IMG/VR virus record: IMGVR_UViG_3300012943_000030
Location: 43,698 to 107,697 of that record
Strand: one strand, 5' to 3'
Source: a virus
Taxonomy: Duplodnaviria > Heunggongvirae > Uroviricota > Caudoviricetes
DNA length: 64,000 nucleotides
Below the pieces are notes generated by a model, which saw nothing but the letters and a program-made list of their open reading frames with translations, was not told the origin of the DNA and made no database searches. Made by a program: the position numbers and the translations under genes. This document shows, piece after piece, positions 1,566 to 15,854 of the stretch (positions are counted from its first letter, which is position 1; each line of letters begins with the position of its first letter).

Positions 1566-1642
1566 GGCGTGTGTAGCTCAGTTGGTAGAGCCCTGGATTG
1601 TGATTCCAGCCGTCGTGGGTTCGAACCCCATCACTCGCCCCA
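1566..1642 (+). tRNA. tRNA-His(GTG)
   Basis: G-1 plus GCGTGTG acceptor, TAGCTCAGTTGGTAGAGC D-arm, anticodon loop TTGTGAT, GGGTTCGAACCCC T-arm, discriminator C, encoded CCA. Confidence 0.7.
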
Positions 1643-1751
1643 AATATCGATGATGAGCTCATTCAACCGCACCCTAAGCAAGGTGTAGGGAGTTCAAAGT
1701 CCACTGACCGCAATGTCAGTCGCATGGCAGGAACGCGAAAGACTGCCCTTC

Positions 1752-1825
1752 GCTCGCTTAGTACAGTGGTAGTATGCAGCCCTCGTAACGCTGAGACGTC
1801 AGTCCGATTCTGACAGTGAGCACCA
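1752..1825 (+). tRNA. tRNA-Thr(CGT) (atypical TCCGATT T-loop)
   Basis: Acceptor GCTCGCT/AGTGAGC, anticodon loop CTCGTAA, T-arm GTCAG-TCCGATT-CTGAC, CCA encoded. Confidence 0.45.
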
Positions 1826-1833
1826 ATTTCAAT

Positions 1834-1909
1834 GGACCGTTCGACTTCTGGTGAGGTCAACAGGCTTTCACCCTGTTCAGGCGGGTTCGATTCTCCGTAC
1901 GGTCTACCA
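1834..1909 (+). tRNA. tRNA-Glu(TTC)
   Basis: Glu-type 3-bp D-stem (TCGACTTCTGGTGAGGTC), anticodon stem ACAGG/CCTGT with loop CTTTCAC, GGGTTCGATTCTCCG T-arm, CCA. Confidence 0.65.
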
Positions 1910-1917
1910 ATTTCAAT

Positions 1918-1994
1918 GCGCGTGTCGTATAGTGGCTTATTATACCTGGCTCTTACCCAGGCTGACGTGGGTTCGAATCCCACTGCGCGCACCA
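1918..1994 (+). tRNA. tRNA-Lys(CTT) (identity tentative)
   Basis: Acceptor GCGCGTG/TGCGCGC, anticodon stem CCTGG/CCAGG with loop CTCTTAC, T-arm GTGGG-TTCGAAT-CCCAC, CCA. Confidence 0.5.
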
Positions 1995-2002
1995 ATTTCT
2001 GT

Positions 2003-2093
2003 TCCAGTGCCGGACCAATGGTGGTGCCCGCGTCGCTGTTAACGACGAGACAACGAAAGTTGTCGGGAGGTTCGATCCCTCTCACTGGAGCCA
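2003..2093 (+). tRNA. type II (long variable arm) tRNA, apparent anticodon GTT on a Tyr-like scaffold
   Basis: 91 nt. Acceptor TCCAGTG/CACTGGA, anticodon stem CGTCG/CGACG with loop CTGTTAA, extra arm GACAAC-GAAA-GTTGTC, T-arm GGAGG-TTCGATC-CCTCT, CCA. Confidence 0.45.
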
Positions 2094-2100
2094 AATTCAC

Positions 2101-2175
2101 GGGTCACTAGCTCAGCGGTAGAGCACTCGCCTCTTAAGCGATCGGTCCAGGGTTCGATCCCCTGGTGGCCCACCA
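2101..2175 (+). tRNA. tRNA-Lys(CTT)
   Basis: GGGTCACTAGCTCAGCGGTAGAGC closely resembles the E. coli tRNA-Lys scaffold. Anticodon loop CTCTTAA, T-arm CAGGG-TTCGATC-CCCTG, CCA. Confidence 0.6.
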
Positions 2176-2183
2176 ATTTCTGT

Positions 2184-2313
2184 TGCGATGTAGCTCAGTG
2201 GTTAGAGCGCTAAACATCGACTACTACTTTTCGTTGACGTAAGTCAACCGGCTTGTGGTTGGTTATCTCTACGAAAGAAGAGGACCCTGGTTCAACTCCA
2301 GGCATCGCAGCCA
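2184..2313 (+). tRNA. tRNA-like gene (Arg ACG-like anticodon arm) with about 53-nt insertion between D-arm and anticodon stem
   Basis: Acceptor TGCGATG/CATCGCA pairs across 130 nt. Canonical D-arm TAGCTCAGTGGTTAGAGC at the 5' end. 3' part has anticodon arm TATCT-CTACGAA-AGAAG, T-arm CCTGG-TTCAACT-CCAGG and CCA. The inserted segment contains hairpin GTTGAC-GTAA-GTCAAC. Confidence 0.4.
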
Positions 2314-2322
2314 AATTTCAAC

Positions 2323-2397
2323 GGGTTTGTAGCTCAGAGGCAGAGCAGCGGGCTTTTAACCCGACGGTCGAGATTTCAAAATTCTCCAGACCCACCA
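2323..2397 (+). tRNA. tRNA-Lys(TTT)
   Basis: Acceptor GGGTTTG/CAGACCC, TAGCTCAGAGGCAGAGC D-arm, anticodon loop CTTTTAA, T-loop TTCAAAA, CCA. Confidence 0.5.
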
Positions 2398-2402
2398 ATT
2401 TC

Positions 2403-2478
2403 GGATCCTTAACTCAGATGGCTAGAGACCCGCCTTTTAAGCGACGTGACGTCGGTTCGATGCCGACAGGATCCACCA
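2403..2478 (+). tRNA. tRNA (anticodon uncertain, loop CTTTTAA/TTTTAAG; weak anticodon stem)
   Basis: Acceptor GGATCCT/AGGATCC perfect, T-arm GTCGG-TTCGATG-CCGAC, CCA. Anticodon stem pairs poorly. Confidence 0.4.
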
Positions 2479-2486
2479 ATTTCAAT

Positions 2487-2561
2487 GCTCGTATCGTCTA
2501 GTGGTTCGGACGCTACCCTCTCAAGGTGGAGACCGGGGTTCGATTCCCCGTACGAGTACCA
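2487..2561 (+). tRNA. tRNA-Glu(CTC)
   Basis: Acceptor GCTCGTA/TACGAGT, Glu-type D-arm TCGTCTAGTGGTTCGGAC, anticodon stem CTACC/GGTGG with loop CTCTCAA, T-arm CGGGG-TTCGATT-CCCCG, CCA. Confidence 0.65.
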
Positions 2562-2566
2562 ATTTC

Positions 2567-2641
2567 GCACTTGTAGCTCAGTGAAAGAGTACCACCTTAA
2601 CGTGGTGGGGGTCGGTGGTTAAAGTCCATCCGAGTGCACCA
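2567..2641 (+). tRNA. atypical tRNA, apparent anticodon AAC (Val?)
   Basis: Acceptor GCACTTG/CGAGTGC, anticodon stem CCACC/GGTGG with loop TTAACGT, unusual T-loop TTAAAGT, CCA. Confidence 0.35.
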
Positions 2642-2735
2642 AGTTTTGACAACCGGATCGCAATCGAGGGTTATCCTTTCACGATGTCCCCCTCAACCGC
2701 ACTGGACGCAAGTCCCTTTGTTGTCAATTGATTTT

Positions 2736-2810
2736 CCCTGTGTAGTTCAGTGGTAGAACGCCTGGCCGATTACCGGGATGTTGTGGGTTCGATTCCTACC
2801 ACAGGGACCA
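2736..2810 (+). tRNA. tRNA, apparent anticodon GAT (Ile?), loop CCGATTA
   Basis: Perfect acceptor CCCTGTG/CACAGGG, D-arm TAGTTCAGTGGTAGAAC, T-arm GTGGG-TTCGATT-CCTAC, CCA. Confidence 0.45.
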
Positions 2811-2815
2811 ATTTC

Positions 2816-2889
2816 GCTTCTCTAGTTCAATGGTAGAACACCGCTTTCACACGGCGAAGACAATGGTCCGATTCCATTGAGAAGCACCA
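2816..2889 (+). tRNA. tRNA-Val(CAC) (TCCGATT T-loop)
   Basis: Perfect acceptor GCTTCTC/GAGAAGC, anticodon loop TTCACAC, T-arm AATGG-TCCGATT-CCATT, CCA. Confidence 0.5.
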
Positions 2890-2979
2890 AGATCAATTCA
2901 GGGCGATCGCACCGATGCGCGAATCGGTGAGGGTTGGTGGTAATGTAATCCCTGAAGGACAGAACCACCGCAAATTCAT

Positions 2980-3057
2980 GGCTACGTGGCAGAGAGGCCC
3001 ATTGCGACACTCTCATAAGGTGTAAAGTCGTCGGTTCGATTCCGACCGTAGCCACCA
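2980..3057 (+). tRNA. tRNA-Met/Ile2(CAT)
   Basis: Acceptor GGCTACG/CGTAGCC, anticodon stem ACACT/GGTGT with loop CTCATAA, T-arm GTCGG-TTCGATT-CCGAC, CCA. Confidence 0.6.
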
Positions 3058-3148
3058 ACTTCCGTAAATACGCAAGACCACATCCGATCGATGTTTAAGC
3101 TGAGCGCATCAGATACTCCACCACGTGGCTTTTCACAGGAGTAGCGCC

Positions 3149-3361
3149 ATGACGAAGGGAAATTTGAGGGTCGCAATCGACTCTGGACTTGCAATTGCAA
3201 TCGTATCTCTAGCTTTCTGGGTTGGTGTTCAATCTGAAAAGATCAACACTTTGGAAGTTGCTGTAACTAACAGAGGTCGCGTACAAATCAGTATTGAGGC
3301 TGATCACCGCTTGACAAAGTTGGAAGAGCAAATGAAAAACGCGCAGGAAAAGCTTAAGTAA
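3149..3361 (+). CDS. small membrane protein (one TM helix plus coiled coil) inside the tRNA array
   Basis: RBS AGGAG 7 nt before ATG 3149. Hydrophobic segment IAIVSLAFWVGV. Preceded by GTAAATA at 3064. Confidence 0.4.
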   Translation: MTKGNLRVAIDSGLAIAIVSLAFWVGVQSEKINTLEVAVTNRGRVQISIEADHRLTKLEEQMKNAQEKLK

Positions 3362-3369
3362 ACCAATAT

Positions 3370-3443
3370 TGAGGAATCGTCTAGCGGCAGGACGGCGGCC
3401 TTTGACCCCGCGAACCTTGGTTCGAATCCAAGTTCCTCATCCA
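3370..3443 (+). tRNA. tRNA-Gln(TTG)
   Basis: Acceptor TGAGGAA/TTCCTCA, Gln/Glu-type 3-bp D-stem (TCGTCTAGCGGCAGGAC), anticodon loop CTTTGAC, T-arm CTTGG-TTCGAAT-CCAAG, CCA. Confidence 0.6.
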
Positions 3444-3478
3444 AACTTAGCGCGCATGTTAGAAGACGTGCGCCATAT

Positions 3479-3552
3479 TCACGGTTCGTCTAATGGCAGG
3501 ACACTACGCTCTGAACGTAGCAACGAAGGTTCGACCCCTTCACTGTGATCCA
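3479..3552 (+). tRNA. tRNA-Gln(CTG)
   Basis: Acceptor TCACGGT/ACTGTGA, TCGTCTAATGGCAGGAC D-arm, anticodon stem CTACG/CGTAG with loop CTCTGAA, T-arm GAAGG-TTCGACC-CCTTC, CCA. Confidence 0.55.
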
Positions 3553-3558
3553 AATTCT

Positions 3559-3632
3559 TGGGGGATCGTCTAGCGGTAGGACTACAGGCTCTGACCCTGT
3601 CGACATTGGTTCGAATCCAGTTCCCCCAGCCA
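3559..3632 (+). tRNA. tRNA-Gln(CTG) (second copy by eye)
   Basis: Perfect acceptor TGGGGGA/TCCCCCA, TCGTCTAGCGGTAGGAC D-arm, anticodon stem ACAGG/CCTGT with loop CTCTGAC, T-arm ATTGG-TTCGAAT-CCAGT, CCA. Confidence 0.55.
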
Positions 3633-3639
3633 ATTCAAT

Positions 3640-3714
3640 GCCGGTGTGGTGTAGTGGTCTGCACGCGACCCTGTCACGGTTGTAGTAGGGGTTCGATCCC
3701 CCTCATCGGCGCCA
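3640..3714 (+). tRNA. tRNA-Asp(GTC)
   Basis: Acceptor GCCGGTG/CATCGGC, anticodon stem CGACC/GGTTG with loop CTGTCAC (as in E. coli tRNA-Asp), T-arm AGGGG-TTCGATC-CCCCT, CCA. Confidence 0.6.
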
Positions 3715-3720
3715 AATCTT

Positions 3721-3799
3721 GGAGTGTTAGCATAGTCCGGCTTAATGCGCTACCCTGTCACGGTAGAGACCACGGGTTCAAATCCCGTACACTCCGCCA
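3721..3799 (+). tRNA. tRNA-Asp(GTC) (second copy by eye)
   Basis: Perfect acceptor GGAGTGT/ACACTCC, anticodon stem CTACC/GGTAG with loop CTGTCAC, T-arm ACGGG-TTCAAAT-CCCGT, CCA. Confidence 0.55.
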
Positions 3800-3807
3800 A
3801 TTTCAAT

Positions 3808-3885
3808 GCCTCTGTAGTTCAGCCCGGATAGAACGTCTCGCTACGAACGAGAAGGTCGTGGGTTCAAATCCTGCCAGGGGTGCCA
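3808..3885 (+). tRNA. tRNA-Arg(ACG)
   Basis: Acceptor GCCTCTG/CAGGGGT (with GU pairs), TAGTTCAGCCCGGATAGAAC D-arm, anticodon stem TCTCG/CGAGA with loop CTACGAA, T-loop TTCAAAT, CCA. Confidence 0.6.
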
Positions 3886-3901
3886 ATTTCTAAATACCTG
3901 C

Positions 3902-4276
3902 ATGAAGATACAGGAACTCTTTGAGGGCTATGATCCAACAAAAGGTAGGGTACTAGCTAGTGCCACTGACAAGGACGGCTATCGCATAGAGATCCACAGT
4001 CACGTCGAGGAGCCACTGCCTGACCACTTTAAGGGATACAACGAGCTTGGCTACGCGGTAGATCGCTTCGGCACGAAGTACATCTTCGCTCCTGATGGTC
4101 GCTGGGTTCAAGGTGGTTACTGGATGAACTGGCCAGAACCAGAGTGGAAGATTGGGGTTGGAACTTGGCTGAAGACGCCGCTCAGGAAGCGCGCCCAGCT
4201 CGAGGCCGACTGGCAAACACACGCATATGATCCTTTGAAGGTACAGTTCAAGAAGCGCATAAGGGAAAGAAAATGA
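3902..4276 (+). CDS. hypothetical protein
   Basis: 124-aa ORF directly after the tRNA cluster. Trp-rich. Confidence 0.45.
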   Translation: MKIQELFEGYDPTKGRVLASATDKDGYRIEIHSHVEEPLPDHFKGYNELGYAVDRFGTKYIFAPDGRWVQGGYWMNWPEPEWKIGVGTWLKTPLRKRAQLEADWQTHAYDPLKVQFKKRIRERK

Positions 4277-4479
4277 AGGTCAATGATCTTTTCGTTAGAG
4301 GGTCTTCATACCTTTCAGGCGTTGTAAAGGGCAAGCCGCTCAAGGTACGCAACATGTACAGCGCCGCAGATACAGCAGCAGTTGTCAAGGATGGCGCAAA
4401 AGTTTCGACGCAGACGATCACTCTCCGCAATGCAGTTACTGGAAGCATTGTTGGTATGAGATCAGTCGCGCAAAAGTAA
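4273..4479 (+). CDS. hypothetical protein
   Basis: 68-aa ORF overlapping the upstream gene at ATGA. Confidence 0.4.
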   Translation: MKVNDLFVRGSSYLSGVVKGKPLKVRNMYSAADTAAVVKDGAKVSTQTITLRNAVTGSIVGMRSVAQK

Positions 4480-4482
4480 TTT

Positions 4483-4556
4483 GTCTCGTTGGTCTAATGG
4501 TATGACGGTGAGCTGCAACCTCACAGGCGCTGGTCCGATTCCGGCACGAGACTCCA
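4483..4556 (+). tRNA. tRNA-Cys(GCA)
   Basis: Perfect acceptor GTCTCGT/ACGAGAC, anticodon stem GTGAG/CTCAC with loop CTGCAAC, T-arm GCTGG-TCCGATT-CCGGC, CCA. Confidence 0.65.
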
Positions 4557-4564
4557 ATTTCTGT

Positions 4565-4640
4565 TCTCGGGTAGCTCAGCTGGTAGAGCGACACGCTGTT
4601 AACGTGTTGGTCGGGGGTTCGAGTCCCTCCCTGGGAGCCA
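4565..4640 (+). tRNA. tRNA-Asn(GTT)
   Basis: TAGCTCAGCTGGTAGAGC D-arm, anticodon stem ACACG/CGTGT with loop CTGTTAA, T-loop TTCGAGT and discriminator G as in E. coli tRNA-Asn, CCA. Confidence 0.7.
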
Positions 4641-4646
4641 ATTTCT

Positions 4647-4720
4647 AGAGGATTGGTGTAGTGGTAGCGCTGCGGTCTCCAAAACCGCCGGCTGGGGTTC
4701 GATTCCCTAATCCTCTGCCA
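4647..4720 (+). tRNA. tRNA-Trp(CCA)
   Basis: Perfect acceptor AGAGGAT/ATCCTCT, anticodon stem GCGGT/ACCGC with loop CTCCAAA, T-arm TGGGG-TTCGATT-CCCTA, discriminator G, CCA. Confidence 0.7.
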
Positions 4721-4741
4721 AATGAACGATTGATGAGCACG

Positions 4742-4748
4742 GTAAATA
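4742..4748 (+). promoter_or_regulatory. late-promoter-like GGTAAATA
   Basis: CGGTAAATACTCC upstream of the CDS at 4811. Same motif at 6645-6657 (rc), 30884 and 34559. Confidence 0.35.
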
Positions 4749-4810
4749 CTCCTGTCCATCCCGCTCAGCTTATGCTGTGATGAGGATGCTAATCCACATA
4801 GGAGATTATC

Positions 4811-5044
4811 ATGACCTTCAACAATCAGTCCAGCAATGCGTTCGTCGACATTTCGTCCGAACAGTTTCGCACGTACCGCTTTCCAAGTGGCGACGAAGTA
4901 ACAATCGAAAGCCCAACCCACCTCAGTGTCTCAACGAGCGGTCACCGCCTCTTTGATGCAAGCGGTGTATCGCACTACGTGCCGAAAGGTTGGATCCACC
5001 TCAAGTGGAAAGCGAAGGACGGGTCGCCGCACTTCGTCAAGTAA
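4811..5044 (+). CDS. hypothetical protein
   Basis: RBS AGGAG at 4800. 77 aa. Confidence 0.4.
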   Translation: MTFNNQSSNAFVDISSEQFRTYRFPSGDEVTIESPTHLSVSTSGHRLFDASGVSHYVPKGWIHLKWKAKDGSPHFVK

Positions 5045-5050
5045 AGAATT

Positions 5051-5126
5051 CTCTCTGTAGTGAAACTGGATATCATACGGGTGTACGAAGCCTGGGTTGT
5101 GGGTTCGAGTCCCACTGGAGAGGCCA
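5051..5126 (+). tRNA. tRNA-like, apparent anticodon ACG (loop GTACGAA), atypical D-arm
   Basis: Acceptor CTCTCTG/TGGAGAG, T-arm GTGGG-TTCGAGT-CCCAC, CCA. Confidence 0.4.
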
Positions 5127-5233
5127 AGATTGATTTCCAAGGTAAAACATCCCTCACCGGCCATAATGACCTTGGATTGATCCGCGATGCTGTGGTGCTC
5201 CTTCGCGTTATAAAAATCCACCACGCCAAATTC

Positions 5234-5308
5234 TGCCGCTGTAGCTGAGATGGATTAGCGTGACCCTGAAAAGGTCGAGAGGTCGGATCGATACCGACCG
5301 GCGGCACC
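5234..5308 (+). tRNA. tRNA-Phe(GAA) (T-loop ATCGATA atypical)
   Basis: Acceptor GCCGCTG/CGGCGGC, anticodon stem TGACC/GGTCG with loop CTGAAAA, T-arm GTCGG-ATCGATA-CCGAC, discriminator A, CCA. Confidence 0.55.
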
Positions 5309-5450
5309 ACTTTTGACAACCGTTGTGGATTGATTATCTTCGCCAAAACTGAAGGGCCAAGCATCTGGTTATGCGCCGAACTACCGCGAGGTACTAGGAG
5401 ATGGGTTCGAGTCCCGGTCTAAACGTCGATCTGCGCTTTTCGTTGTCGAT

Positions 5451-5690
5451 TTATTCTGTAAGCCAATTCATGAGCGCGAAGACCTTTCGCACGATGCTCA
5501 CGACGGTGAACAAGCACATCATCGGCATGATGCACACCCAGAAAAATGAGCTGATGGTCGGCGGCATCTCAAAGCCCTTCTTCTCAAGCCATTCCTCGAT
5601 CTTGCCTGCGTTCTTCATGGCCCGCACAAACGCGAACATGACGACGCCGAACGCGAACAGACCACACAACGTTGAGATGAGAAATTCCAT
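5451..5690 (-). CDS. small hydrophobic membrane protein
   Basis: 79 aa with 2-3 predicted TM segments. Late-promoter-like GTAAATA lies immediately upstream on the - strand (plus coordinates 5691-5710). Confidence 0.4.
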   Translation of the reverse strand: MEFLISTLCGLFAFGVVMFAFVRAMKNAGKIEEWLEKKGFEMPPTISSFFWVCIMPMMCLFTVVSIVRKVFALMNWLTE

Positions 5691-5701
5691 CTCATATTTA
5701 C

Positions 5702-5777
5702 GCCCTCGTAGCTCAGTGGATAGAGCAGCAAGTTCCTACCTTGCAGGTCGGAGGTTCAAATCCTCTTGAGGGCGCCA
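5702..5777 (+). tRNA. tRNA-Arg(CCT)
   Basis: Acceptor GCCCTCG/TGAGGGC, TAGCTCAGTGGATAGAGC D-arm, anticodon stem GCAAG/CTTGC with loop TTCCTAC, T-arm GGAGG-TTCAAAT-CCTCT, CCA. Confidence 0.6.
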
Positions 5778-5785
5778 AACACAAT

Positions 5786-5861
5786 GCCTCCGTAGCTCAG
5801 TGGACAGAGCGGCAAGCTTCTACCTTGCGGGTCGCGGGTTCAAATCCTGCCGGGGGCTCCA
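5786..5861 (+). tRNA. tRNA-Arg(TCT)
   Basis: Acceptor GCCTCCG/CGGGGGC, anticodon stem GCAAG/CTTGC with loop CTTCTAC, T-arm GCGGG-TTCAAAT-CCTGC, CCA. Confidence 0.6.
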
Positions 5862-5863
5862 AT

Positions 5864-6643
5864 TCAGAGCTTAGGTGCAACGGCTTTCCAGTACTCGCTG
5901 CACATGCTGGTGTGAGAACCTACGCCAGGGTGGATACCATCTCGCGCATGAGGTCGTCTGAAATTTTCTACTGGATATCGAACGAAGTTGTTTCCAGTTG
6001 AGCGTATGAGCTCACTCGCCTGTGGCTCCCAAGCCGCATGATAGGCGTCGCACTCCCAGTGCATGTACAGCGCCTCCATAATGTTGAGGCTTCTCACGCA
6101 CTGATGCTGCGCGAAGTGCGCATCGGTAAACAGCTTGTCTACATCAGCGCAGCTGCTGTTCGGCGTCCACAGCTGACCATTCGCTTTTCCGAAGCAGTAG
6201 TCTCTGCGGTGCATTGATGGAAACAGTGAGAACACCAGCACGGGCTTCACCTTTACGTTCTTGGCGAACCACATTGATGTTGCGGCCATGGTGTCAAATC
6301 CACCACCGCCGAAGGCGATGTTCCAATATGGTATCTTTTTGCCGGTTGCGGCTCGAAGCTTTTCGACCAGCTGGTAGGACCACGTGCTCGTCACTGGAAC
6401 TCCAATCCCTTCTGTTACGCTGCAGCCATTGAATAGAACTGGCAGCTCGCTCTCCTCGCTGAACTCATCGCATCTAAAACCGGCCGAGTTGAAGCTGTAG
6501 CTGAAGTCCTCAGGGCTGAACTGATTTGTCCAGCGAGGGTGCTGCTTTTTGTAGTTGGCTGCCGTGTCAGTTCCACACCACTGGCGAGTTTCACCACGCC
6601 GTGAGTTGATGCAGCCGAGATAATGATCAATGATGGTATCCAT
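5864..6643 (-). CDS. SGNH/GDSL-like hydrolase-family protein (paralogue of 54613..55428)
   Basis: Shares DFxYSFNxxGFRCxEF, GCSxTEGxGxP, IPYWNxAxxGG..DTMA and ARDGxHxG (DxxH) blocks with the ORF at 54613. Late-promoter-like GGTAAATACTCC directly upstream on the - strand. Confidence 0.5.
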   Translation of the reverse strand: MDTIIDHYLGCINSRRGETRQWCGTDTAANYKKQHPRWTNQFSPEDFSYSFNSAGFRCDEFSEESELPVLFNGCSVTEGIGVPVTSTWSYQLVEKLRAATGKKIPYWNIAFGGGGFDTMAATSMWFAKNVKVKPVLVFSLFPSMHRRDYCFGKANGQLWTPNSSCADVDKLFTDAHFAQHQCVRSLNIMEALYMHWECDAYHAAWEPQASELIRSTGNNFVRYPVENFRRPHARDGIHPGVGSHTSMCSEYWKAVAPKL

Positions 6644-6668
6644 GGAGTATTTACCGTGGGGTGCCTAT

Positions 6669-6743
6669 GCGCCCGTAGCTCAGTGGACAGAGCATCGTCA
6701 TCCGAAGGCGAAGGTCGTGGGTTCGATCCCCACCTGGCGCTCC
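6669..6743 (+). tRNA. tRNA-Arg(CCG)
   Basis: TAGCTCAGTGGACAGAGC D-arm, anticodon stem TCGTC/GGCGA with loop ATCCGAA, T-arm GTGGG-TTCGATC-CCCAC, CCA. Confidence 0.55.
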
Positions 6744-6745
6744 AG

Positions 6746-6753
6746 ATAAATAT
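6746..6753 (+). promoter_or_regulatory. late-promoter-like GATAAATA
   Basis: GATAAATATG immediately after tRNA-Arg(CCG), upstream of def. Confidence 0.35.
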
Positions 6754-6843
6754 GTGTACGAGATTTTGCCCTTGTAGTATATTGGTATTACGCGGCTTTG
6801 GTAAGGCTGAAAAAACAGTTCAATTCTGTTCTAGGGCACCACT

Positions 6844-7347
6844 TTGTTGAAGGTACTACACTATCCTGATAAGGCACTGAAGCTTCGAAGCCAGGAGATC
6901 GTTGATGGTCTCACTGATGCTTCGAAGGCGATCATCGCTGAGATGATCCTCCTCATGCGCACCGAGAACGGTGTTGGGCTGTCAGCAATTCAGGTGGGCT
7001 ACCCCTTCCGCATCTTCATCATGGACACGTCGTCCATGAATGGAAAGGTCGTTGGCAAGATCTTCGTCAATCCCGAGATTGTTGAGGCGGCCACCGAGAT
7101 CCTTCCATACAACGAAGGCTGCTTGAGCTTCCCTGGCCTGTTCGCCGTGGTGAAGCGCCCAGCCTGGGTGAAGGTGAAGGCACGCGATGACAACTTTGAA
7201 GAATTCGAACTCACGCTGGACGGCATCGACGCGGTCTGCTTTCAGCATGAACTTGATCACCTGAACGGAATTACGTTCTACGATCACTTGAGCCAGGTCA
7301 AGAAGGAATGGCTCAAGAAGAAGATGAAGAAACTCGGGCTCGCTTAG
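6844..7347 (+). CDS. def: peptide deformylase
   Basis: GVGLSAIQV, EGCLSFPG and QHELDHLNG motifs match the three conserved PDF motifs. 167 aa. Confidence 0.85.
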   Translation: MLKVLHYPDKALKLRSQEIVDGLTDASKAIIAEMILLMRTENGVGLSAIQVGYPFRIFIMDTSSMNGKVVGKIFVNPEIVEAATEILPYNEGCLSFPGLFAVVKRPAWVKVKARDDNFEEFELTLDGIDAVCFQHELDHLNGITFYDHLSQVKKEWLKKKMKKLGLA

Positions 7348-7412
7348 CTCAGTGGTAGAGCACTTCTTTGACATAGAAGAGGTCGTAGGTTCGATCCCTA
7401 CAGCGAGCACCA
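7338..7412 (+). tRNA. tRNA-Val(GAC); its 5' end overlaps the last 10 nt of def, including the stop codon
   Basis: Perfect acceptor GCTCGCT/AGCGAGC, TAGCTCAGTGGTAGAGC D-arm, anticodon stem CTTCT/AGAAG with loop TTGACAT, T-arm GTAGG-TTCGATC-CCTAC, CCA. Confidence 0.65.
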
Positions 7413-12497: not shown

Positions 12498-13067
12498 ATG
12501 GCGCTAATTCTCCAACTAGACGCATCTGGCCAGCCGAACAAGTGGATCACGTGGAAGGCTGCCGTCACTTACCATGCCAAGAACCTGGTCGCCTGGGAAA
12601 TCGGTGAGGTAGAGACGGTCGTGAAGGGTGGTACGAGCTCCAAGACTGGATCTCAGACCGTCGTCGTGACGTCATCTATCATGGCAGTGAAGGGCAACGC
12701 GAAGCGCAAGTACCGCGTTCCAGCTCTTGATAATCCGGCGCTGTTTCGCCGTGACCACCACCTATGCGCCTACTGTGGAGACAAGTTCCACGAGGATGAT
12801 CTTACTCGTGATCACATCATCCCGCAGGCCCACAATGGTGAGGACACCTGGATGAACTGCGTGTCAGCGTGCATTCGCTGCAACCAGCGCAAGGATGACC
12901 GCACGCCGGAACAGGCGCGCATGCCGCTGCTGTTCGCACCGTACATCCCGAACAAGGCTGAGCACCTTATCCTGAAGAACCGCAACATCCTTGCGGATCA
13001 GATGGAGTTCCTGCTCTCGTTCGTCGACGAAAAGTCAAGCGTCCGCAGACACGCGGCAAAGAGGTAA
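12498..13067 (+). CDS. HNH endonuclease
   Basis: CAYCGDKF...DHIIPQAHNGEDTWMNCVSACIRCNQRK (HNH with zinc-binding Cys pairs). Confidence 0.7.
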   Translation: MALILQLDASGQPNKWITWKAAVTYHAKNLVAWEIGEVETVVKGGTSSKTGSQTVVVTSSIMAVKGNAKRKYRVPALDNPALFRRDHHLCAYCGDKFHEDDLTRDHIIPQAHNGEDTWMNCVSACIRCNQRKDDRTPEQARMPLLFAPYIPNKAEHLILKNRNILADQMEFLLSFVDEKSSVRRHAAKR

Positions 13068-13071
13068 TAGA

Positions 13072-13638
13072 ATGATAGGCTCACGCATGGAAAAGTTTCT
13101 CGAAGCTCAACGGCGTGGGTCTCTCATCATTGCTTTTCTATCGTCCTTCACTGGTGTTCTGTTGCTTGTCAAGACGTTTCACCACGGCTTCTGGTCGTTC
13201 ATCTTGGCAGCTCTCAGCGCCTACGTCCTCTCGCGCGTCGCGTCTTGGTTCCACTTTCTGTGGCTCCAGCACCGCATCTACAACAACGACCTTCATGCCT
13301 TCATGGAGGACGCGAAGGGGGCCTTCGATCACTTCACCGTGATCTTGAACAAGGCAGACACCGCCATTCTTCAGCAGAAGCTCTATGCTGGCGGCAAGCT
13401 GAACCTTGCAGCTATCTCCCCATTCATGGTGATCGGTGGCCCTGAGAAGCACATCGCCAACTACATGGACGCCAAGATCTACGATTGGCTCGACATGGTT
13501 GGTCAAGATGGCATCAAGCGCCGCTTCAACTACCACTCGGTAGCAACCAAGCCGGAACATCACCATGGAATTCTTCCTGAGGGTTGCATCATCATCCAGC
13601 CTGGCATCATTTATCAGGTTGACGAAACTAGTAAATAG
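13072..13638 (+). CDS. membrane hypothetical protein
   Basis: RBS AGAGG. Two N-terminal TM helices. 188 aa. Confidence 0.45.
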   Translation: MIGSRMEKFLEAQRRGSLIIAFLSSFTGVLLLVKTFHHGFWSFILAALSAYVLSRVASWFHFLWLQHRIYNNDLHAFMEDAKGAFDHFTVILNKADTAILQQKLYAGGKLNLAAISPFMVIGGPEKHIANYMDAKIYDWLDMVGQDGIKRRFNYHSVATKPEHHHGILPEGCIIIQPGIIYQVDETSK

Positions 13639-14234
13639 CCTCACGAGAGTTTACGCCACGCCACCTCTGTGGTACAATTCTCATCTGCAAAGAGTTCATC
13701 GGAACCGGAACAAGTTGATTATCCCAACGGTCCTAACAGGCCGTCAACATTTCTACTTGTACACCCTTTGTTCCATCCTCTGAACTCTTATCCATAAAGT
13801 TTGACTTAGAAAAGTTGTCTCTGTCCGTAGGTGTTGGTTATCCAATATTACACGGTAGGTTTCAGGAGTGGGCCAGCAGCTCATGAATGAATAGGCGCAT
13901 GTACCGAATTGCATGTGGGTTCTCTTGACCGGTCCAGGCGTATGCCGCAACCACCCAACAAGAGATAGTGCGAGGTAGAACACTCGATATTTGCGGGATT
14001 GAAAACCCGATATTTGCTGGCATGAATAGCCAGATTGGCTACCAATGGCTAAATTCATTTGGTGTAGGAACCAGGCGATTACGAAACCTTCGGGTTAGTA
14101 TCCTTGTGCGGACAGTGAAGCTGTTTGCAGCTGAAGTATCCGAAGTCCCGACATCACCCTTTGTCGGAGACAACCTTTCTAAGTCAAGCTTACTTTGCTG
14201 CCACAAGGCAGCCGTCATCAAGGAGTATCACATC

Positions 14235-15854
14235 ATGGCACGCGCATCTTCAATCTACGTTTCAACGAACACTCGCAAGCTGTCGTCAACTTCGACGCCA
14301 CAGACGCAGGCACTGCCTGGCCGTGAGGACGAGATGGTACGCAACTCGGCAGGCGGAATGACCTTCCAGCTTGACCAGTGGGGCTACCTCGACCGCTTCC
14401 TCATTCTCGGCTCTGAGGCTCCTTCGTACTACGCTTCTGCAAAGAAGCTGACGAAGCTCAACTCAGCCAACCTTCTCGCCTGCATCAAGGCCGATGGTAT
14501 CAAGACCGTCGACCGCATCGTTGAGCTGTCGCTTGCTGGCCGTGCGCCAAAGAACGATCCAGCCGTCTTCGCCCTGGCGATGTGCGCTGTTCATGGCAAC
14601 GAGGCTACCATCAAGGCAGCCTACGAGGCCCTGCCAAAGGTATGCCGCATTGGCACGCACCTTTTCCAGTTCGTGTCTGCGCTCGATGAGCTCGGCAAGT
14701 GGAACGCCGCTGCGAAGCGTGGTGTTGCTGCATGGTACACCAAGCGTGGTGAGGACAAGCTGGCCCTCCAGCTGCTCAAGTACCAGCAGCGCGATGGCTG
14801 GGCGCACCGCGACGTGCTCCGCCTGGCGCACGTGAAGCCGCAGACAGAAGTACAGTCGAACCTCTTCCGCTACGTCGTGAAGGGTTCGGACGGTCTCGCA
14901 GAGGGCTCAGTAGTTCCGCAGCTGGTCAACGACTTCGAGGCGCTCAAGGGTGCCGATGCGAAGAAGGCGATCAAGCTGATCGAGAGCAACGATGCAATCA
15001 CTTGGGAGATGATCCCAACTGAGCTGCAGCGTGATGTGAACGTGATGTCTGCCCTGCTCCCAGGCATGGGTATCACCGCGCTCATCCGCAAGCTTGGTCA
15101 GCTGACGAACGTTGGCGTGATCGCACCGCTGTCGGCCGACGCGAAGACCGTTATCGCGAAGCTGTCTGACAAGGAGCTCATCAAGTCTGGTCGTGTTCAC
15201 CCGATCACGATCCTCAACGCCTTCAACACGTACAAGAAGGGCCACGGCGACAAGGGTTCACTCACTTGGAAGCCAGTGCAGCCAGTTGTTGACGCGCTGA
15301 ACGATGCGTTCTACGAAGCATTCGAGTTCATCGAGAGCACCGGTGAGGGCTACCTCATTGGTATCGACTGCTCGGGTTCGATGTGGTGGGACACCTCGCG
15401 CGTCAAGGGTATGAACCTGACCGCAGCAGAAGTTGCAGCCGTCATGGCGCTTGGTCTTGCAAAGCGTGAGCCGAACCACTGGATCGGCGCATTCGGCACG
15501 ACCATGAAGGAGCTCAAGATCACGCCAAAGATGCGCCTCGACCAGGTGTTGAACGTGATGCAGACTTCGATGATGGGTGGTACGGACTGCTCGCTGCCGA
15601 TGACGCACGCGTCAACTCACAAGATGTCAGGCGTGGACAAGTTCTGCGTGTACACCGACAACGAGACGTACGCTGGTCGTGCGCAGCCGGTGGAGACGCT
15701 GGCTCGTTACCGCAAGCAGTACAACCCGAAGGCGAAGCTGATCGTGTGCGGCGTGGCCGCGACCGACTTCACGATCGCTGATCCGAAGGATCCTGGCATG
15801 CTAGACATTGTCGGATTTGATAGCGCTGCACCGCAGCTCATTCAGTCCTTCTAA
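14235..15854 (+). CDS. Ro60-like TROVE-domain protein with C-terminal vWA domain (Rsr homologue)
   Basis: RBS AAGGAG at 14219. N-terminal TROVE-like region. C-terminal vWA MIDAS DCSGSM and GGTDCS. 539 aa. Confidence 0.55.
   Translation: MARASSIYVSTNTRKLSSTSTPQTQALPGREDEMVRNSAGGMTFQLDQWGYLDRFLILGSEAPSYYASAKKLTKLNSANLLACIKADGIKTVDRIVELSLAGRAPKNDPAVFALAMCAVHGNEATIKAAYEALPKVCRIGTHLFQFVSALDELGKWNAAAKRGVAAWYTKRGEDKLALQLLKYQQRDGWAHRDVLRLAHVKPQTEVQSNLFRYVVKGSDGLAEGSVVPQLVNDFEALKGADAKKAIKLIESNDAITWEMIPTELQRDVNVMSALLPGMGITALIRKLGQLTNVGVIAPLSADAKTVIAKLSDKELIKSGRVHPITILNAFNTYKKGHGDKGSLTWKPVQPVVDALNDAFYEAFEFIESTGEGYLIGIDCSGSMWWDTSRVKGMNLTAAEVAAVMALGLAKREPNHWIGAFGTTMKELKITPKMRLDQVLNVMQTSMMGGTDCSLPMTHASTHKMSGVDKFCVYTDNETYAGRAQPVETLARYRKQYNPKAKLIVCGVAATDFTIADPKDPGMLDIVGFDSAAPQLIQSF

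What the first reader, a model, noticed from the sequence alone, without database searches (positions are those of the whole stretch)
13639..15854. Ro60/TROVE-vWA (Rsr) homologue preceded by about 590 nt of non-coding DNA: candidate phage Y-RNA locus
The 539-aa ORF (14235..15854) combines a TROVE-like N-terminal region with a C-terminal vWA domain (MIDAS DCSGSM, GGTD), the architecture of bacterial Rsr/Ro60. Bacterial and phage Ro60 genes are typically adjacent to Y RNAs (YrlA-type, with tRNA-like modules). Upstream is an unusually long, lower-GC, ORF-poor stretch (13639-14234). It contains direct repeats (CGATATTTGC twice flanking GGGATTGAAAACCC), a hairpin CCGACA..TGTCGG and a late-promoter-like AGTAAATAG. 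This phage also carries a huge tRNA array and an RF homologue, so an RNA-surveillance or tRNA-like decoy RNA is plausible.
Basis: partly seen in the sequence, partly recalled or inferred. Interest (0 to 1): 0.7.

Follow-up and report, generated by a model that had tools for sequence, protein, structure and literature searches.

The report
Two Y-like RNAs upstream of Ro60
The ~590 bases in front of this jumbo phage's Ro60 gene encode two conserved, folded RNAs built like the Y RNAs that partner Ro60 in bacteria and animals; one is about three times longer than the 80-130 nt of characterised Y RNAs.

Summary
ORF 14235-15854 is a full-length Ro60 (TROVE + Ro60 vWA; E 1e-97 to 1e-107 to solved Ro60 structures). 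The 596-nt gap upstream is non-coding, lower in GC and conserved.

The gap holds two RNAs on the Ro60 strand. E1 is ~100 nt (13690-13789) and E2 is ~395 nt (13797-14191). They follow a conserved sigma70-like promoter (13650-13678).

Both RNAs share one closing module: a terminal stem, then C|CG(N)AG, a second helix and UUAUC on the 5' side, and CCRAY..UUUUG| on the 3' side. Covariation supports it (93-96% of cells paired against 75% in shuffles).

Rfam Y_RNA and YrlA models find nothing here, and E1/E2 have no tRNA-like domain. However, a covariance model built only from E1 finds 69 elements beside Ro60 genes of distant phages and bacteria, all on the Ro60 strand. One of them is an element Rfam itself scores as a Y-RNA/sbRNA relative.

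E2 carries a ~300-nt multi-hairpin insert with CGAA/GAA loops. It occurs upstream of Ro60 in 46 fetched loci (about 38 distinct sequences), many on large phage contigs (up to 368 kb).

A probable third Y-like RNA with a T-arm lies in the tRNA array (5314-5449).

Verdict: a Y-RNA locus, as a new variant of a known kind. Expression and Ro60 binding are untested.

The parts
14235..15854 (+). Ro60 (TROVE + Ro60-type vWA with MIDAS DCSGSM) gene, 539 aa
   Evidence: Pfam PF25045 3.6e-55 and PF05731 1.4e-32. Full-length matches to solved Ro60/Rsr structures. 370 phage records carry homologues at <=42% identity.
13650..13678 (+). Sigma70-like promoter TTTACG-17 nt-(TG)TACAAT; predicted start near 13685
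   Evidence: Consensus scan. Hexamers and spacing are conserved in L001/L010 (TTTACT-17-TAGAAT) and partly in other relatives. Function is inferred.
13630..13638 (+). AGTAAATAG, a TATAAATA-like motif overlapping the stop codon of the upstream ORF
   Evidence: (T/C/A)(A/G)TAAATA is conserved at this place in relatives. It is not enriched window-wide. Role unknown.
13690..13789 (+). E1, a small Y-like RNA of ~100 nt. Outer stem AAGAGUUCA (13690-13698) / UGAACUCUU (13781-13789). Inner stem GGAAC (13701-13705) / GUUCC (13770-13774). CGGAA motif 13706-13710. P2 helix from 13711. UUAUC 13719-13723. Variable apical hairpin. 3' junction ..CACCCUUUG.
   Evidence: nhmmer family of 11 loci. Alignment A9: 96.2% of cells paired against 74.8% in shuffles, 11/14 pairs with double changes. 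CM R1 scores this site at 57.8 bits.
13797..14191 (+). E2, a giant Y-like RNA of ~395 nt. Terminal stem P1 13797-13825 / 14163-14191. Junction CG 13826-13827. P2a GG 13830-13831 / UC 14154-14155. P2 GUUGG 13833-13837 / CCGAC 14148-14152. UUAUC 13838-13842. 3' junction ACCCUUU 14156-14162.
   Evidence: nhmmer finds it in 44 of the phage/metagenome loci, always on the + strand and upstream of Ro60, plus L103 and L104. P1: cognate flank duplexes average -33 against -12 kcal/mol for non-cognate. P1 top, P2a and P2: 93.3% paired against 74.8% in shuffles, 11/15 pairs with double changes. CM R2, built from the E2 termini only, finds E1 elements elsewhere.
13897..13916 (+). E2 hairpin Ha: GCAUGU / GCAUGU stem with loop ACCGAAUU (a CCGAA loop)
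   Evidence: The stem covaries across relatives and the loop (G)CCGA(A/G) is conserved.
13971..14033 (+). E2 tandem hairpins separated by (G)AUAUUUGC linkers. H1 13971-13986, loop GUAGAACA. H2 13994-14009, loop AUUGAAAA. H3 14017-14033, loop AUGAAUA.
   Evidence: Compensatory changes: CGGG/CCCG becomes UGGG/CCCA in L001. The H3 helix scores among the best covarying helices. Relatives carry GUCGAAUA, ACCGAACA and CGAA loops. CGAA occurs 59 times against 34 +/- 5 in shuffles.
14040..14068 (+). E2 hairpin H4 (UACC..GGUG) followed by the conserved GUAGG
   Evidence: RNAalifold on A6: 4 of 7 pairs keep pairing through double changes (AU:7, CG:7, GC:7 at one pair).
14140..14146 (+). CCGAAGU, the conserved C(C/U)GAA(A/G)U motif just 5' of the P2 3' strand
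   Evidence: Conserved in 30+ sequences. It may pair with the YUUUG of the 3' junction, which would make a pseudoknot; support is only one-sided or weak covariation.
14194..14214 (+). Pre-RBS hairpin UUUG-CUGCC-ACAA-GGCAG-CCG, 6 nt before the RBS
   Evidence: UUUGCUG and CAGCCG are invariant or nearly so, with a covarying stem. It stays with Ro60 when ORFs are inserted between E2 and Ro60.
5314..5449 (+). E3, a probable third Y-like RNA with a tRNA-like T-arm, directly after tRNA-Phe. GACAAC|CGUUG..GAUUAUC ... D-like arm, GNRA hairpin, GGGUUCGAGUCCC ... UUUUCG|UUGUC.
   Evidence: R1 gives 16.1 bits, E 0.1 in the window and 25.1 bits, E 3e-5 at the syntenic site of the related phage (L141). Compensatory changes: GCAU/AUGC to GUAC/GUAC, GCGA to GUGA. 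Its own fold energy is not unusual, z = -0.08.

Best explanation
The gap encodes two non-coding RNAs of the Y-RNA kind, E1 (~100 nt) and E2 (~395 nt). They are transcribed with Ro60 from the promoter at 13650-13678.

Shown: each RNA closes with a long stem formed by its own 5' and 3' ends. The stem is capped by a conserved module. On the 5' side it reads C|CG(N)AG, second helix, UUAUC. On the 3' side it reads second helix, (C)A..UUUUG|. The same module closes Ro60-adjacent Y-like RNAs of bacteria, where the motif is the canonical CCGAAG..GGUUAUC..CUUG.

Inferred:
- This module is the Ro60 docking site.
- The long perfect stems (about 29 bp in E2) are cut by a double-strand-specific RNase such as RNase III. 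This would release the RNAs and leave the Ro60 mRNA with its conserved 5' hairpin.
- The part inside the module is the effector-binding domain. In E1 it is a small hairpin.
- In E2 it is a ~300-nt array of 6-8 hairpins, many displaying CGAA/GAA loops. This array would tether Ro60 to further proteins (an exoribonuclease such as PNPase, or more Ro60 rings), and would gate Ro60's access to misfolded RNAs during infection by a phage that brings 29 tRNAs of its own.
For: Ro60 identity.

Conservation and strand:
- E2 was found by iterative nhmmer in 44 phage/metagenome loci plus 2 MAG contigs. It is always upstream of Ro60 and always on its strand, down to ~51% Ro60 identity.
- E1 lies directly upstream of E2 in 11+ loci.

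Structure:
- The + strand of the gap folds with z = -5.3.
- E1 helices: 96.2% paired against 74.8% in shuffles, slid controls 24-48%.
- E2 P1 top/P2a/P2: 93.3% against 74.8%, slid controls 34-49%.
- E2 P1 cognate flank duplexes -33.2 against -11.8 kcal/mol, cognate ranked first in 18/23.
- H4 covaries.
- G.U cells outnumber A.C cells 38:7 and 13:3, which fits a + strand RNA.

Homology to Y RNAs:
- CM R1, built from E1 only, gives 29 + 40 hits beside Ro60 in bacterial MAGs and distant phages, all on the Ro60 strand.
- These include L117 3298-3357, which Rfam independently scores above gathering as RF01656, the nematode sbRNA family that the literature treats as homologous to Y RNAs.
- They also include longer matches such as L117 3421-3548, which contains a YrlA-type D-arm.
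- L117 and L130 read P1-C|CGAAG..GGUUAUC..CUUG|-P1.
- CM R2, built from the E2 termini only, recovers E1 elements of other loci.

Independence from the Ro60 start: ORFs are inserted between E2 and Ro60 in L037, L038, L041 and L047.

Precedent: Thermus phage phiLo encodes two Y-like RNAs upstream of its Ro60, found by CGAA motifs, that bind it in vitro (PMC12135203). Y RNAs are modular, with a Ro60-binding stem plus an effector module (10.1101/312249). YrlA-like RNAs lie within 4 kb of Ro60 on the same strand (PMC4201824).
Against: - No Rfam Y_RNA, YrlA or sbRNA hit in the gap or anywhere in the window, even at E<=5-10. The same library does detect Y-like RNAs beside Ro60s of 41-47% identity and weakly in mycobacteriophage I3.
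- The motif at the stem top in the window is CGGAA (E1) and CGUAGG (E2), not the canonical GNCGAA(N)G.
- E2 is about three times longer than the 80-130 nt of characterised Y RNAs.
- No terminator separates E2 from Ro60, so the stretch could act only as part of the mRNA.
- E-values from the custom models are rough.
- Alignment A8 was hand-anchored to the proposed structure.
- There are no data on transcription, processing or binding.
Confidence: 0.72

Rival explanations
1. The ~550-nt stretch is a cis-acting 5' leader of the Ro60 mRNA, for example an autoregulatory site where Ro60 binds its own message or a stability element. It would not be a source of free RNAs.
For: It is always upstream and on the same strand. 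No terminator-like site lies between E2 and the start codon. A conserved hairpin sits right before the RBS. One promoter would serve the whole unit.
Against: E2 (and E1 where present) stays intact when an 80-110 aa ORF or a 247-aa GIY-YIG-like ORF is inserted between it and Ro60, while the pre-RBS hairpin stays with Ro60. Elements with the same module lie downstream of Ro60, or in tandem, in bacterial loci such as L117 and L122-L124. The long terminal stems look like excision signals. The two readings are not exclusive: M. smegmatis YrlA and YrlB are processed from one precursor upstream of rsr.
Confidence: 0.15
2. A conserved structured RNA unrelated to Ro60 binding (another ribozyme, riboswitch or phage sRNA) that merely shares a neighbourhood with Ro60.
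For: No curated RNA family matches. E2's size and its multi-hairpin array are unlike the described Y RNAs covered by the papers read here. Binding is untested.
Against: The linkage is tight across ~51-100% Ro60 identity and many contigs. The closing module is shared with Ro60-adjacent RNAs of unrelated bacteria and with an Rfam-recognised Y/sbRNA-type element. All 69 model hits are on the Ro60 strand. Rfam found no group I intron, tmRNA, RNase P, 6S, GOLLD, ROOL or HEARO signature.
Confidence: 0.08
3. A DNA-level feature: remains of a mobile element with terminal inverted repeats, a replication or packaging signal, or a transcript of the minus strand.
For: A 29-bp inverted repeat flanks E2. 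An HNH endonuclease gene lies two genes upstream. A minus-strand promoter-like site lies at 13747-13718. The minus strand also folds below shuffles, z = -3.1.
Against: Helices keep pairing through G.U pairs that would be A.C on the other strand (38:7 and 13:3). The U.G in GUUGG/CCGAC is kept in 18/23 sequences. The stems covary in sequence while their position is fixed relative to Ro60, with no target-site duplications or scattered copies: there is one E1 and one E2 in the window. The minus-strand promoter lies in a hairpin that is absent from L001.
Confidence: 0.05

Closest known systems
Simple bacterial/phage Y-like RNAs (Salmonella and M. smegmatis YrlB; Thermus phage phiLo Yrl1/Yrl2; unnamed elements beside Ro60 in Planctomycetes, Vicinamibacterales and Myxococcota MAGs)
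   Same: 80-130 nt. Terminal stem made of the 5' and 3' ends. CGAA-type motif at the top of the stem. Encoded next to Ro60 on the same strand, often in tandem and upstream. E1's covariance model finds the MAG elements directly.
   Different: The window's E1 has CGGAA rather than CGAA(G); other members of the same family have CGAAG, CGUAG or CGAUAG. No model or sequence of YrlB or Yrl1/2 was available here for a direct comparison. Binding is untested.
YrlA (Rfam RF02553), the tRNA-like Y RNA
   Same: Ro60-adjacent and on the same strand. It shares the closing module, including the YUAY (UUAU) element. R1 also picks up longer matches that carry YrlA-type arms, such as L117 3421-3548.
   Different: E1 and E2 lack the T-arm (GCGGGuUCGAgaCCCGC) and the D-arm (GUAGCUCA..GGUAGAGC) that carry most of the model's score. 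There is no hit at E<=10. E3 has a T-arm and a D-like arm, but in the order D...T rather than T-AS-D, and it lies 8.8 kb from Ro60.
Deinococcus radiodurans Yrn1 and metazoan Y / nematode sbRNAs (RF00019, RF01656)
   Same: Modular plan: a Ro60-binding stem plus an effector module made of stem-loops. In Yrn1 the effector module binds the KH/S1 domains of PNPase. An RF01656 hit above threshold beside a planctomycete Ro60 is also the best non-self hit of the E1 model.
   Different: No Rfam hit in the window. The GGUCCGA/UUGACC helix is not present as such. E2's effector module is ~300 nt with 6-8 hairpins, against ~50-80 nt.
Multi-hairpin protein-sponge RNAs (CsrB/RsmZ type): works-like only
   Same: An array of short hairpins, separated by a repeated linker, each showing the same short loop motif (here CGAA/GAA; there GGA). 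This is the anatomy of a multivalent protein-binding RNA (own knowledge).
   Different: No sequence relation. The bound protein here is unknown. This is an analogy of anatomy only.

Membership tests
Ro60 / TROVE protein family | TROVE (HEAT-repeat ring) domain | tested here: met
   PF05731 1.4e-32. Aligned over residues 14-539 to Rsr 2nvo and 23-539 to X. laevis Ro60 1yvp.
Ro60 / TROVE protein family | C-terminal Ro60-type vWA domain with a MIDAS motif | tested here: met
   PF25045 3.6e-55, residues 373-539. DCSGSM and GGTD read in the sequence.
YrlA (Rfam RF02553) | Covariance-model score at or above gathering (69 bits) | tested here: not met
   No hit in 13500-14400 at E<=10 nor anywhere in the window at E<=5. 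Positive controls give 34-39 bits beside other Ro60 genes.
YrlA (Rfam RF02553) | tRNA-like domain: T stem-loop, acceptor-like stem-loop and D stem-loop, in that order | tested here: not met
   Nothing in E1/E2 resembles GGGUUCGA..CCC or GUAGCUCA..GGUAGAGC. E3 (5314-5449) has a T-arm and a D-like arm but in the opposite order.
YrlA / bacterial Y RNAs (Chen et al. 2014) | 5' motif GNCGAAN0-1G near the top of the terminal stem | tested here: inconclusive
   The window has AACCGGAAC (E1) and UCCGUAGG (E2). Family members have ACCGAAG (L084), ACCGUAG and ACCGAUAG. Bacterial relatives found by R1 have GCCGAAG. Same position, variable sequence.
YrlA / bacterial Y RNAs (Chen et al. 2014) | Conserved YUAY after the 5' stem | tested here: met
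   UUAUC is invariant or nearly so in E1 (A9) and E2 (A8). It is also present in L117 and L130.
YrlA / bacterial Y RNAs (Chen et al. 2014) | Encoded within ~4 kb of Ro60 on the same strand | tested here: met
   E1 and E2 end 446 and 44 nt before the Ro60 start, on the + strand. This holds in all 46 E2 loci. E3 is 8.8 kb away on the same strand.
Y RNA (general definition) | Long stem formed by pairing of the 5' and 3' ends, containing the Ro60 site | tested here: met
   Stems are supported by covariation and by the cognate-flank duplex test. That the module is the Ro60 site is inferred.
Y RNA (general definition) | Size 80-130 nt | tested here: not met
   E1 at ~100 nt fits. E2 at ~395 nt does not.
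Y RNA (general definition) | Stable transcript physically bound by Ro60 | not testable with these tools
   Needs RNA-seq or northern blots and Ro60 pull-down or EMSA.
Metazoan Y RNA / sbRNA (RF00019, RF01656) | Covariance-model hit | tested here: not met
   No hit in the window. RF01656 does hit L117 3295-3358 at 48.7 bits (gathering 38), and E1's model hits the same element.

The most novel reading that the evidence does not exclude
E2 is a new class of giant, multivalent Y RNA. A standard Ro60-docking stem carries a ~300-nt scaffold of 6-8 hairpins whose CGAA/GAA loops recruit several Ro60 rings and/or host or phage RNA-processing enzymes. Together with E1, and with a tRNA-like Y RNA (E3) embedded in the tRNA array, it would form a phage-encoded RNA surveillance or repair particle. 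That particle would protect or remodel the tRNA/rRNA pool during jumbo-phage infection.
Probability: 0.3. Interest if true: 0.8.

Novelty: new variant of a known kind. Interest (0 to 1): 0.6.

Why it matters
- Y RNAs are the obligatory partners of Ro60, but bacterial and phage examples are known almost only as the tRNA-like YrlA class. Their effector proteins are mostly unknown.
- This locus gives a covariance-model-defined family of simple Y-like RNAs. It links phage, bacterial and Rfam-recognised Y/sbRNA-type elements through one shared docking module.
- It also gives a ~395-nt Y-like RNA with an elaborate, conserved effector domain, found with Ro60 in fetched loci that include 320-370 kb phage contigs.
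- If E2 binds Ro60, it is a natural handle for finding what phage Ro60 particles recruit and why tRNA-rich jumbo phages carry them.
- It also shows that Rfam-based screens miss a sizeable part of Y-RNA diversity.

Tried and rejected
1. Rfam at gathering threshold and at E<=10 over the gap, and at E<=5 over the whole window: only tRNAs and noise.
2. GenBank phage DNA searches with the locus and with the gap, near and distant: no match. Only Ro60 protein-level hits at <=42% identity.
3. The metagenome scan returned only the contig already known plus one 45% relative.
4. MAFFT alignment with the 56-58% relatives L002-L004: these have a protein ORF and a short gap instead of E1/E2, so they gave no information.
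5. Local hairpins GUUGG-UUAU-CCAAU and CCGACA/UGUCGG: rejected in favour of the long-range GUUGG/CCGAC pairing and of P1. Reasons are the compensatory changes (GUUAG/CUGAC, AUUGG/CCAAU, AUUGG/CCGAU) and the fact that the local alternatives are not positionally conserved.
6. A helix YGAAR/YUUYG around the P2 3' strand (a pseudoknot): only one-sided or weak covariation. Left open.
7. UUAUC pairing with GAUAG: broken in L001 and L013, so rejected.
8. N-terminal extension of Ro60 from GTG 13968: rejected. The RBS and ATG are conserved, homologues start at the same Met, and the upstream region has 1-nt indels.
9. Reverse association test (E2 without Ro60) by DNA pattern: every pattern specific enough matched <35% of known E2 sequences, so it was not run.
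10. Two pattern scans meant to fetch relatives of E3 gave chance hits only: a tRNA-Pro and a coding region. A protein-anchored fetch succeeded instead.
11. TATAAATA as a window-wide promoter motif: not enriched.
Full report
THE OBSERVATION. The ORF at 14235-15854 (+) is a bona fide Ro60. Pfam gives the Ro60 vWA domain (3.6e-55) and TROVE (1.4e-32). The protein aligns end to end with solved Ro60 chains: 9nen 5e-107, Xenopus 1yvp 7e-105 and Deinococcus Rsr 2nvo 6e-97.

The preceding ORF ends at 13638, which leaves 596 nt. GC there falls to 0.45-0.49, against 0.55-0.64 on either side. The window also holds 29 tRNA genes at 1567-7412.

THE GAP IS CONSERVED AND FOLDED. No GenBank phage matches the DNA. 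Phage Ro60 homologues there are at most 42% identical.

A 358-kb IMG/VR contig (L001, Ro60 83% identical) carries the same gap. The gap is conserved as well as or better than the flanking genes. It shows 1-nt indels and visible compensatory changes.

As RNA, the + strand folds 5.3 sd below dinucleotide shuffles; the - strand folds 3.1 sd below.

The large protein collection holds many Ro60s of 60-83% identity. Eight of them were traced to contigs. All show the synteny HNH endonuclease, an unknown ~180-aa protein, a 420-610 nt gap, then Ro60.

A Ro60-profile scan of IMG/VR added 80 loci.

TWO ELEMENTS. Iterative nhmmer splits the gap into E1 (window ~13692-13787; 11 loci, more at weaker scores) and E2 (~13818-14225).
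- E2 was found in 44 loci (36 distinct sequences). It is always on the Ro60 strand and always upstream of Ro60, down to ~51% Ro60 identity.
- Two further E2 copies lie on small MAG contigs.
- The window has one copy of each element.
- A conserved sigma70-like promoter precedes E1: TTTACG-17-TGTACAAT at 13650-13678.
- No terminator-like site follows E2.

STRUCTURE. Both RNAs close on themselves. In E2 the 29 nt before 'CG' (13797-13825) pair with 14163-14191.

Across 23 sequences the cognate 5'/3' flanks form duplexes of -33.2 kcal/mol on average. Non-cognate combinations give -11.8. The cognate partner ranks first in 18 of 23.

Above this stem sits a conserved junction (C|CG..), a 2-bp helix P2a, and a 5-bp helix P2 (GUUGG 13833-13837 with CCGAC 14148-14152). 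P2 covaries: GUUAG/CUGAC, AUUGG/CCAAU and AUUGG/CCGAU.

On an anchor-padded alignment, 93.3% of cells pair against 74.8% in shuffles. Eleven of 15 pairs show double changes, and slid controls give 34-49%. That alignment was fitted by hand, so it leans towards the structure.

E1 has the same plan in miniature. An ordinary MAFFT alignment of 15 sequences gives 96.2% paired against 74.8%, with all nine P2 pairs changing on both sides.

G.U cells outnumber A.C cells 38:7 and 13:3, as expected for a + strand RNA.

Inside P2, E2 carries:
- UUAUC;
- a hairpin with a CCGAA loop (13897-13916);
- a variable domain;
- three tandem hairpins separated by (G)AUAUUUGC linkers (13971-14033).
- a strongly covarying hairpin UACC..GGUG followed by GUAGG;
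- variable hairpins;
- C(C/U)GAA(A/G)U just before the P2 3' strand.

In relatives the hairpin loops read GUCGAAUA, ACCGAACA or CGAA. Over 23 E2 sequences CGAA occurs 59 times, against 34 +/- 5 in shuffles. The sequences are related, so this is only suggestive.

IS IT A Y RNA?

The library is not blind, however.
- It finds a partial YrlA in mycobacteriophage I3 (36 bits).
- It finds YrlA-like hits beside Ro60 in several MAGs.
- It finds RF01656 (nematode sbRNA, described in the literature as homologous to Y RNAs) above its gathering score, directly after a planctomycete Ro60 (L117).

YrlA's score comes from its T- and D-arms, and E1/E2 have nothing of the kind. So they are not YrlA.

Reading the Rfam-detected elements shows the same closing module as E1/E2: stem-C|CGAAG..GGGUUAUC ... 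CAACUUG|-stem. This is the GNCGAAN0-1G and YUAY of Chen et al. (PMC4201824).

The link was tested formally.
- A covariance model built only from the 15 E1 sequences (R1) found 29 elements at E<=1 in bacterial/MAG loci and 40 at E<=0.1 in phage loci. All 69 are on the Ro60 strand.
- These include the RF01656-scored element of L117 (32.8 bits), tandem copies, and longer matches that contain tRNA-like arms.
- A model built only from the two ends of E2 (R2) recovers E1 elements of other loci.

E1 and E2 therefore share a module, and that module is the one closing Ro60-adjacent Y-like RNAs elsewhere.

LEADER OR FREE RNA? In L037, L038 and L041 a small ORF lies between E2 and Ro60. In L047 a 247-aa GIY-YIG-like ORF does. 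In each case the conserved pre-RBS hairpin (UUUG-stem-CCG; window 14194-14214) stays with Ro60.

In bacterial loci the related elements also lie downstream of Ro60.

This argues against a leader that must abut the Ro60 start. It fits RNAs cut out of a common precursor, as described for M. smegmatis YrlA/YrlB. The near-perfect ~29-bp stem of E2 is a plausible RNase III substrate; this is inference only.

A THIRD ELEMENT. R1's only other hit in the window is 5314-5449 (+), immediately after tRNA-Phe (16 bits, E 0.1).

It has the module (GACAAC|CGUUG..GAUUAUC ... UUUUCG|UUGUC). Inside the module it has a D-like arm, a GNRA hairpin and a T-arm GGGUUCGAGUCCC.

The syntenic site in the L001 phage scores 25 bits. 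It shows compensatory changes: GCAU/AUGC to GUAC/GUAC, GCGA to GUGA and UUCGAGU to UUCGAAU.

This looks like a tRNA-like Y RNA with an arm order different from YrlA. It rests on two sequences only.

MECHANISM (inferred). Y RNAs are modular. The terminal stem docks on Ro60, and the loop domain tethers an effector or gates the Ro60 cavity (10.1101/312249).

Thermus phage phiLo Ro60 binds two upstream-encoded Y-like RNAs, and with them host PNPase (PMC12135203).

By analogy, E1 and E2 dock on the phage Ro60 through the shared module. E2's ~300-nt hairpin array is an enlarged effector domain, possibly multivalent. What it binds is unknown.

VERDICT. The interpretation as a phage Y-RNA locus is supported by comparative evidence, but not as YrlA-type.

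E1 is a new member of a known kind. E2 is a new variant: a giant Y-like RNA. Nothing is known about expression or binding.

Noticed in passing
window 5314-5449 (+); L141 1820-1957 (-): Probable third Y-like RNA, directly after tRNA-Phe in the tRNA array. It has the E1/E2 closing module plus a D-like arm, a GNRA hairpin and a tRNA T-arm. It is conserved, with compensatory changes, in the related 358-kb phage.
   Followed up: partly
L006 (Ga0265297_10023811) 210-263, 681-739, 1856-1916, 2654-2713, 4617-4677: A contig with a 45%-identical Ro60 carries a type III hammerhead (58 bits, above gathering) and four twister-P1-like matches (37-55 bits, below gathering) between its genes. All are on the Ro60 strand and two flank Ro60 itself. 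R1 also hits 2863-2920 just before Ro60.
   Followed up: no
L037 1229-1501, L038 788-1290, L041 1089-1501, L047 750-1501: ORFs inserted between E2 and Ro60: a small protein starting MEKLS (about 80-110 aa) in three loci, and a 247-aa GIY-YIG-like homing-endonuclease-type ORF in L047.
   Followed up: partly
window 14194-14214: Conserved hairpin with invariant flanks (UUUGCUG ... CAGCCG) 6 nt before the Ro60 RBS. It is kept even where the stem sequence is replaced (GUUGAC..GUCAAC in L037/L038/L041). Possibly a processing site, an mRNA-stability element or a regulatory site.
   Followed up: partly
L113 (MAG labelled Polyangiaceae) 378-1425 and 3164-4588: Ro60 is embedded in a dense tRNA array (about 17 tRNA hits), with a YrlA-like hit and R1/R2 hits. 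It looks like a phage contig binned into a bacterial MAG. L103 (Oscillatoriales MAG) and L104 (Acinetobacter MAG) carry E2 and are probably phage too.
   Followed up: no
window 2003-2093 and 1834-1909: ARAGORN calls a 91-nt tRNA-Asn(GTT) that Rfam's tRNA model does not report. It also calls a tRNA-Glu that Rfam scores only as a weak tRNA-Sec match. These may be unusual or interrupted tRNAs.
   Followed up: no
window 12498-13067 and 12991-13638: An HNH endonuclease (HNH_5 3.5e-15) followed by a ~180-215 aa protein with no Pfam match. The two are syntenic upstream of the Y-RNA/Ro60 unit in all close relatives. The two ORFs overlap by ~77 nt as listed.
   Followed up: no
window 13747-13718 (-): Best-scoring sigma70-like site of the region (TTGACG-18-GATAAT, 10/12) lies on the minus strand inside E1's apical hairpin. 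That hairpin is absent from L001, so the site is probably fortuitous.
   Followed up: partly
window 13920-13965: E2 sub-domain UUCUCUUG..CAAGAGA encloses ACCGGUCCAGG. This contains UUGACC and GGUCC, the two halves of the metazoan Y-RNA Ro-binding helix, side by side. It is conserved only among the closest relatives. Significance unknown.
   Followed up: no
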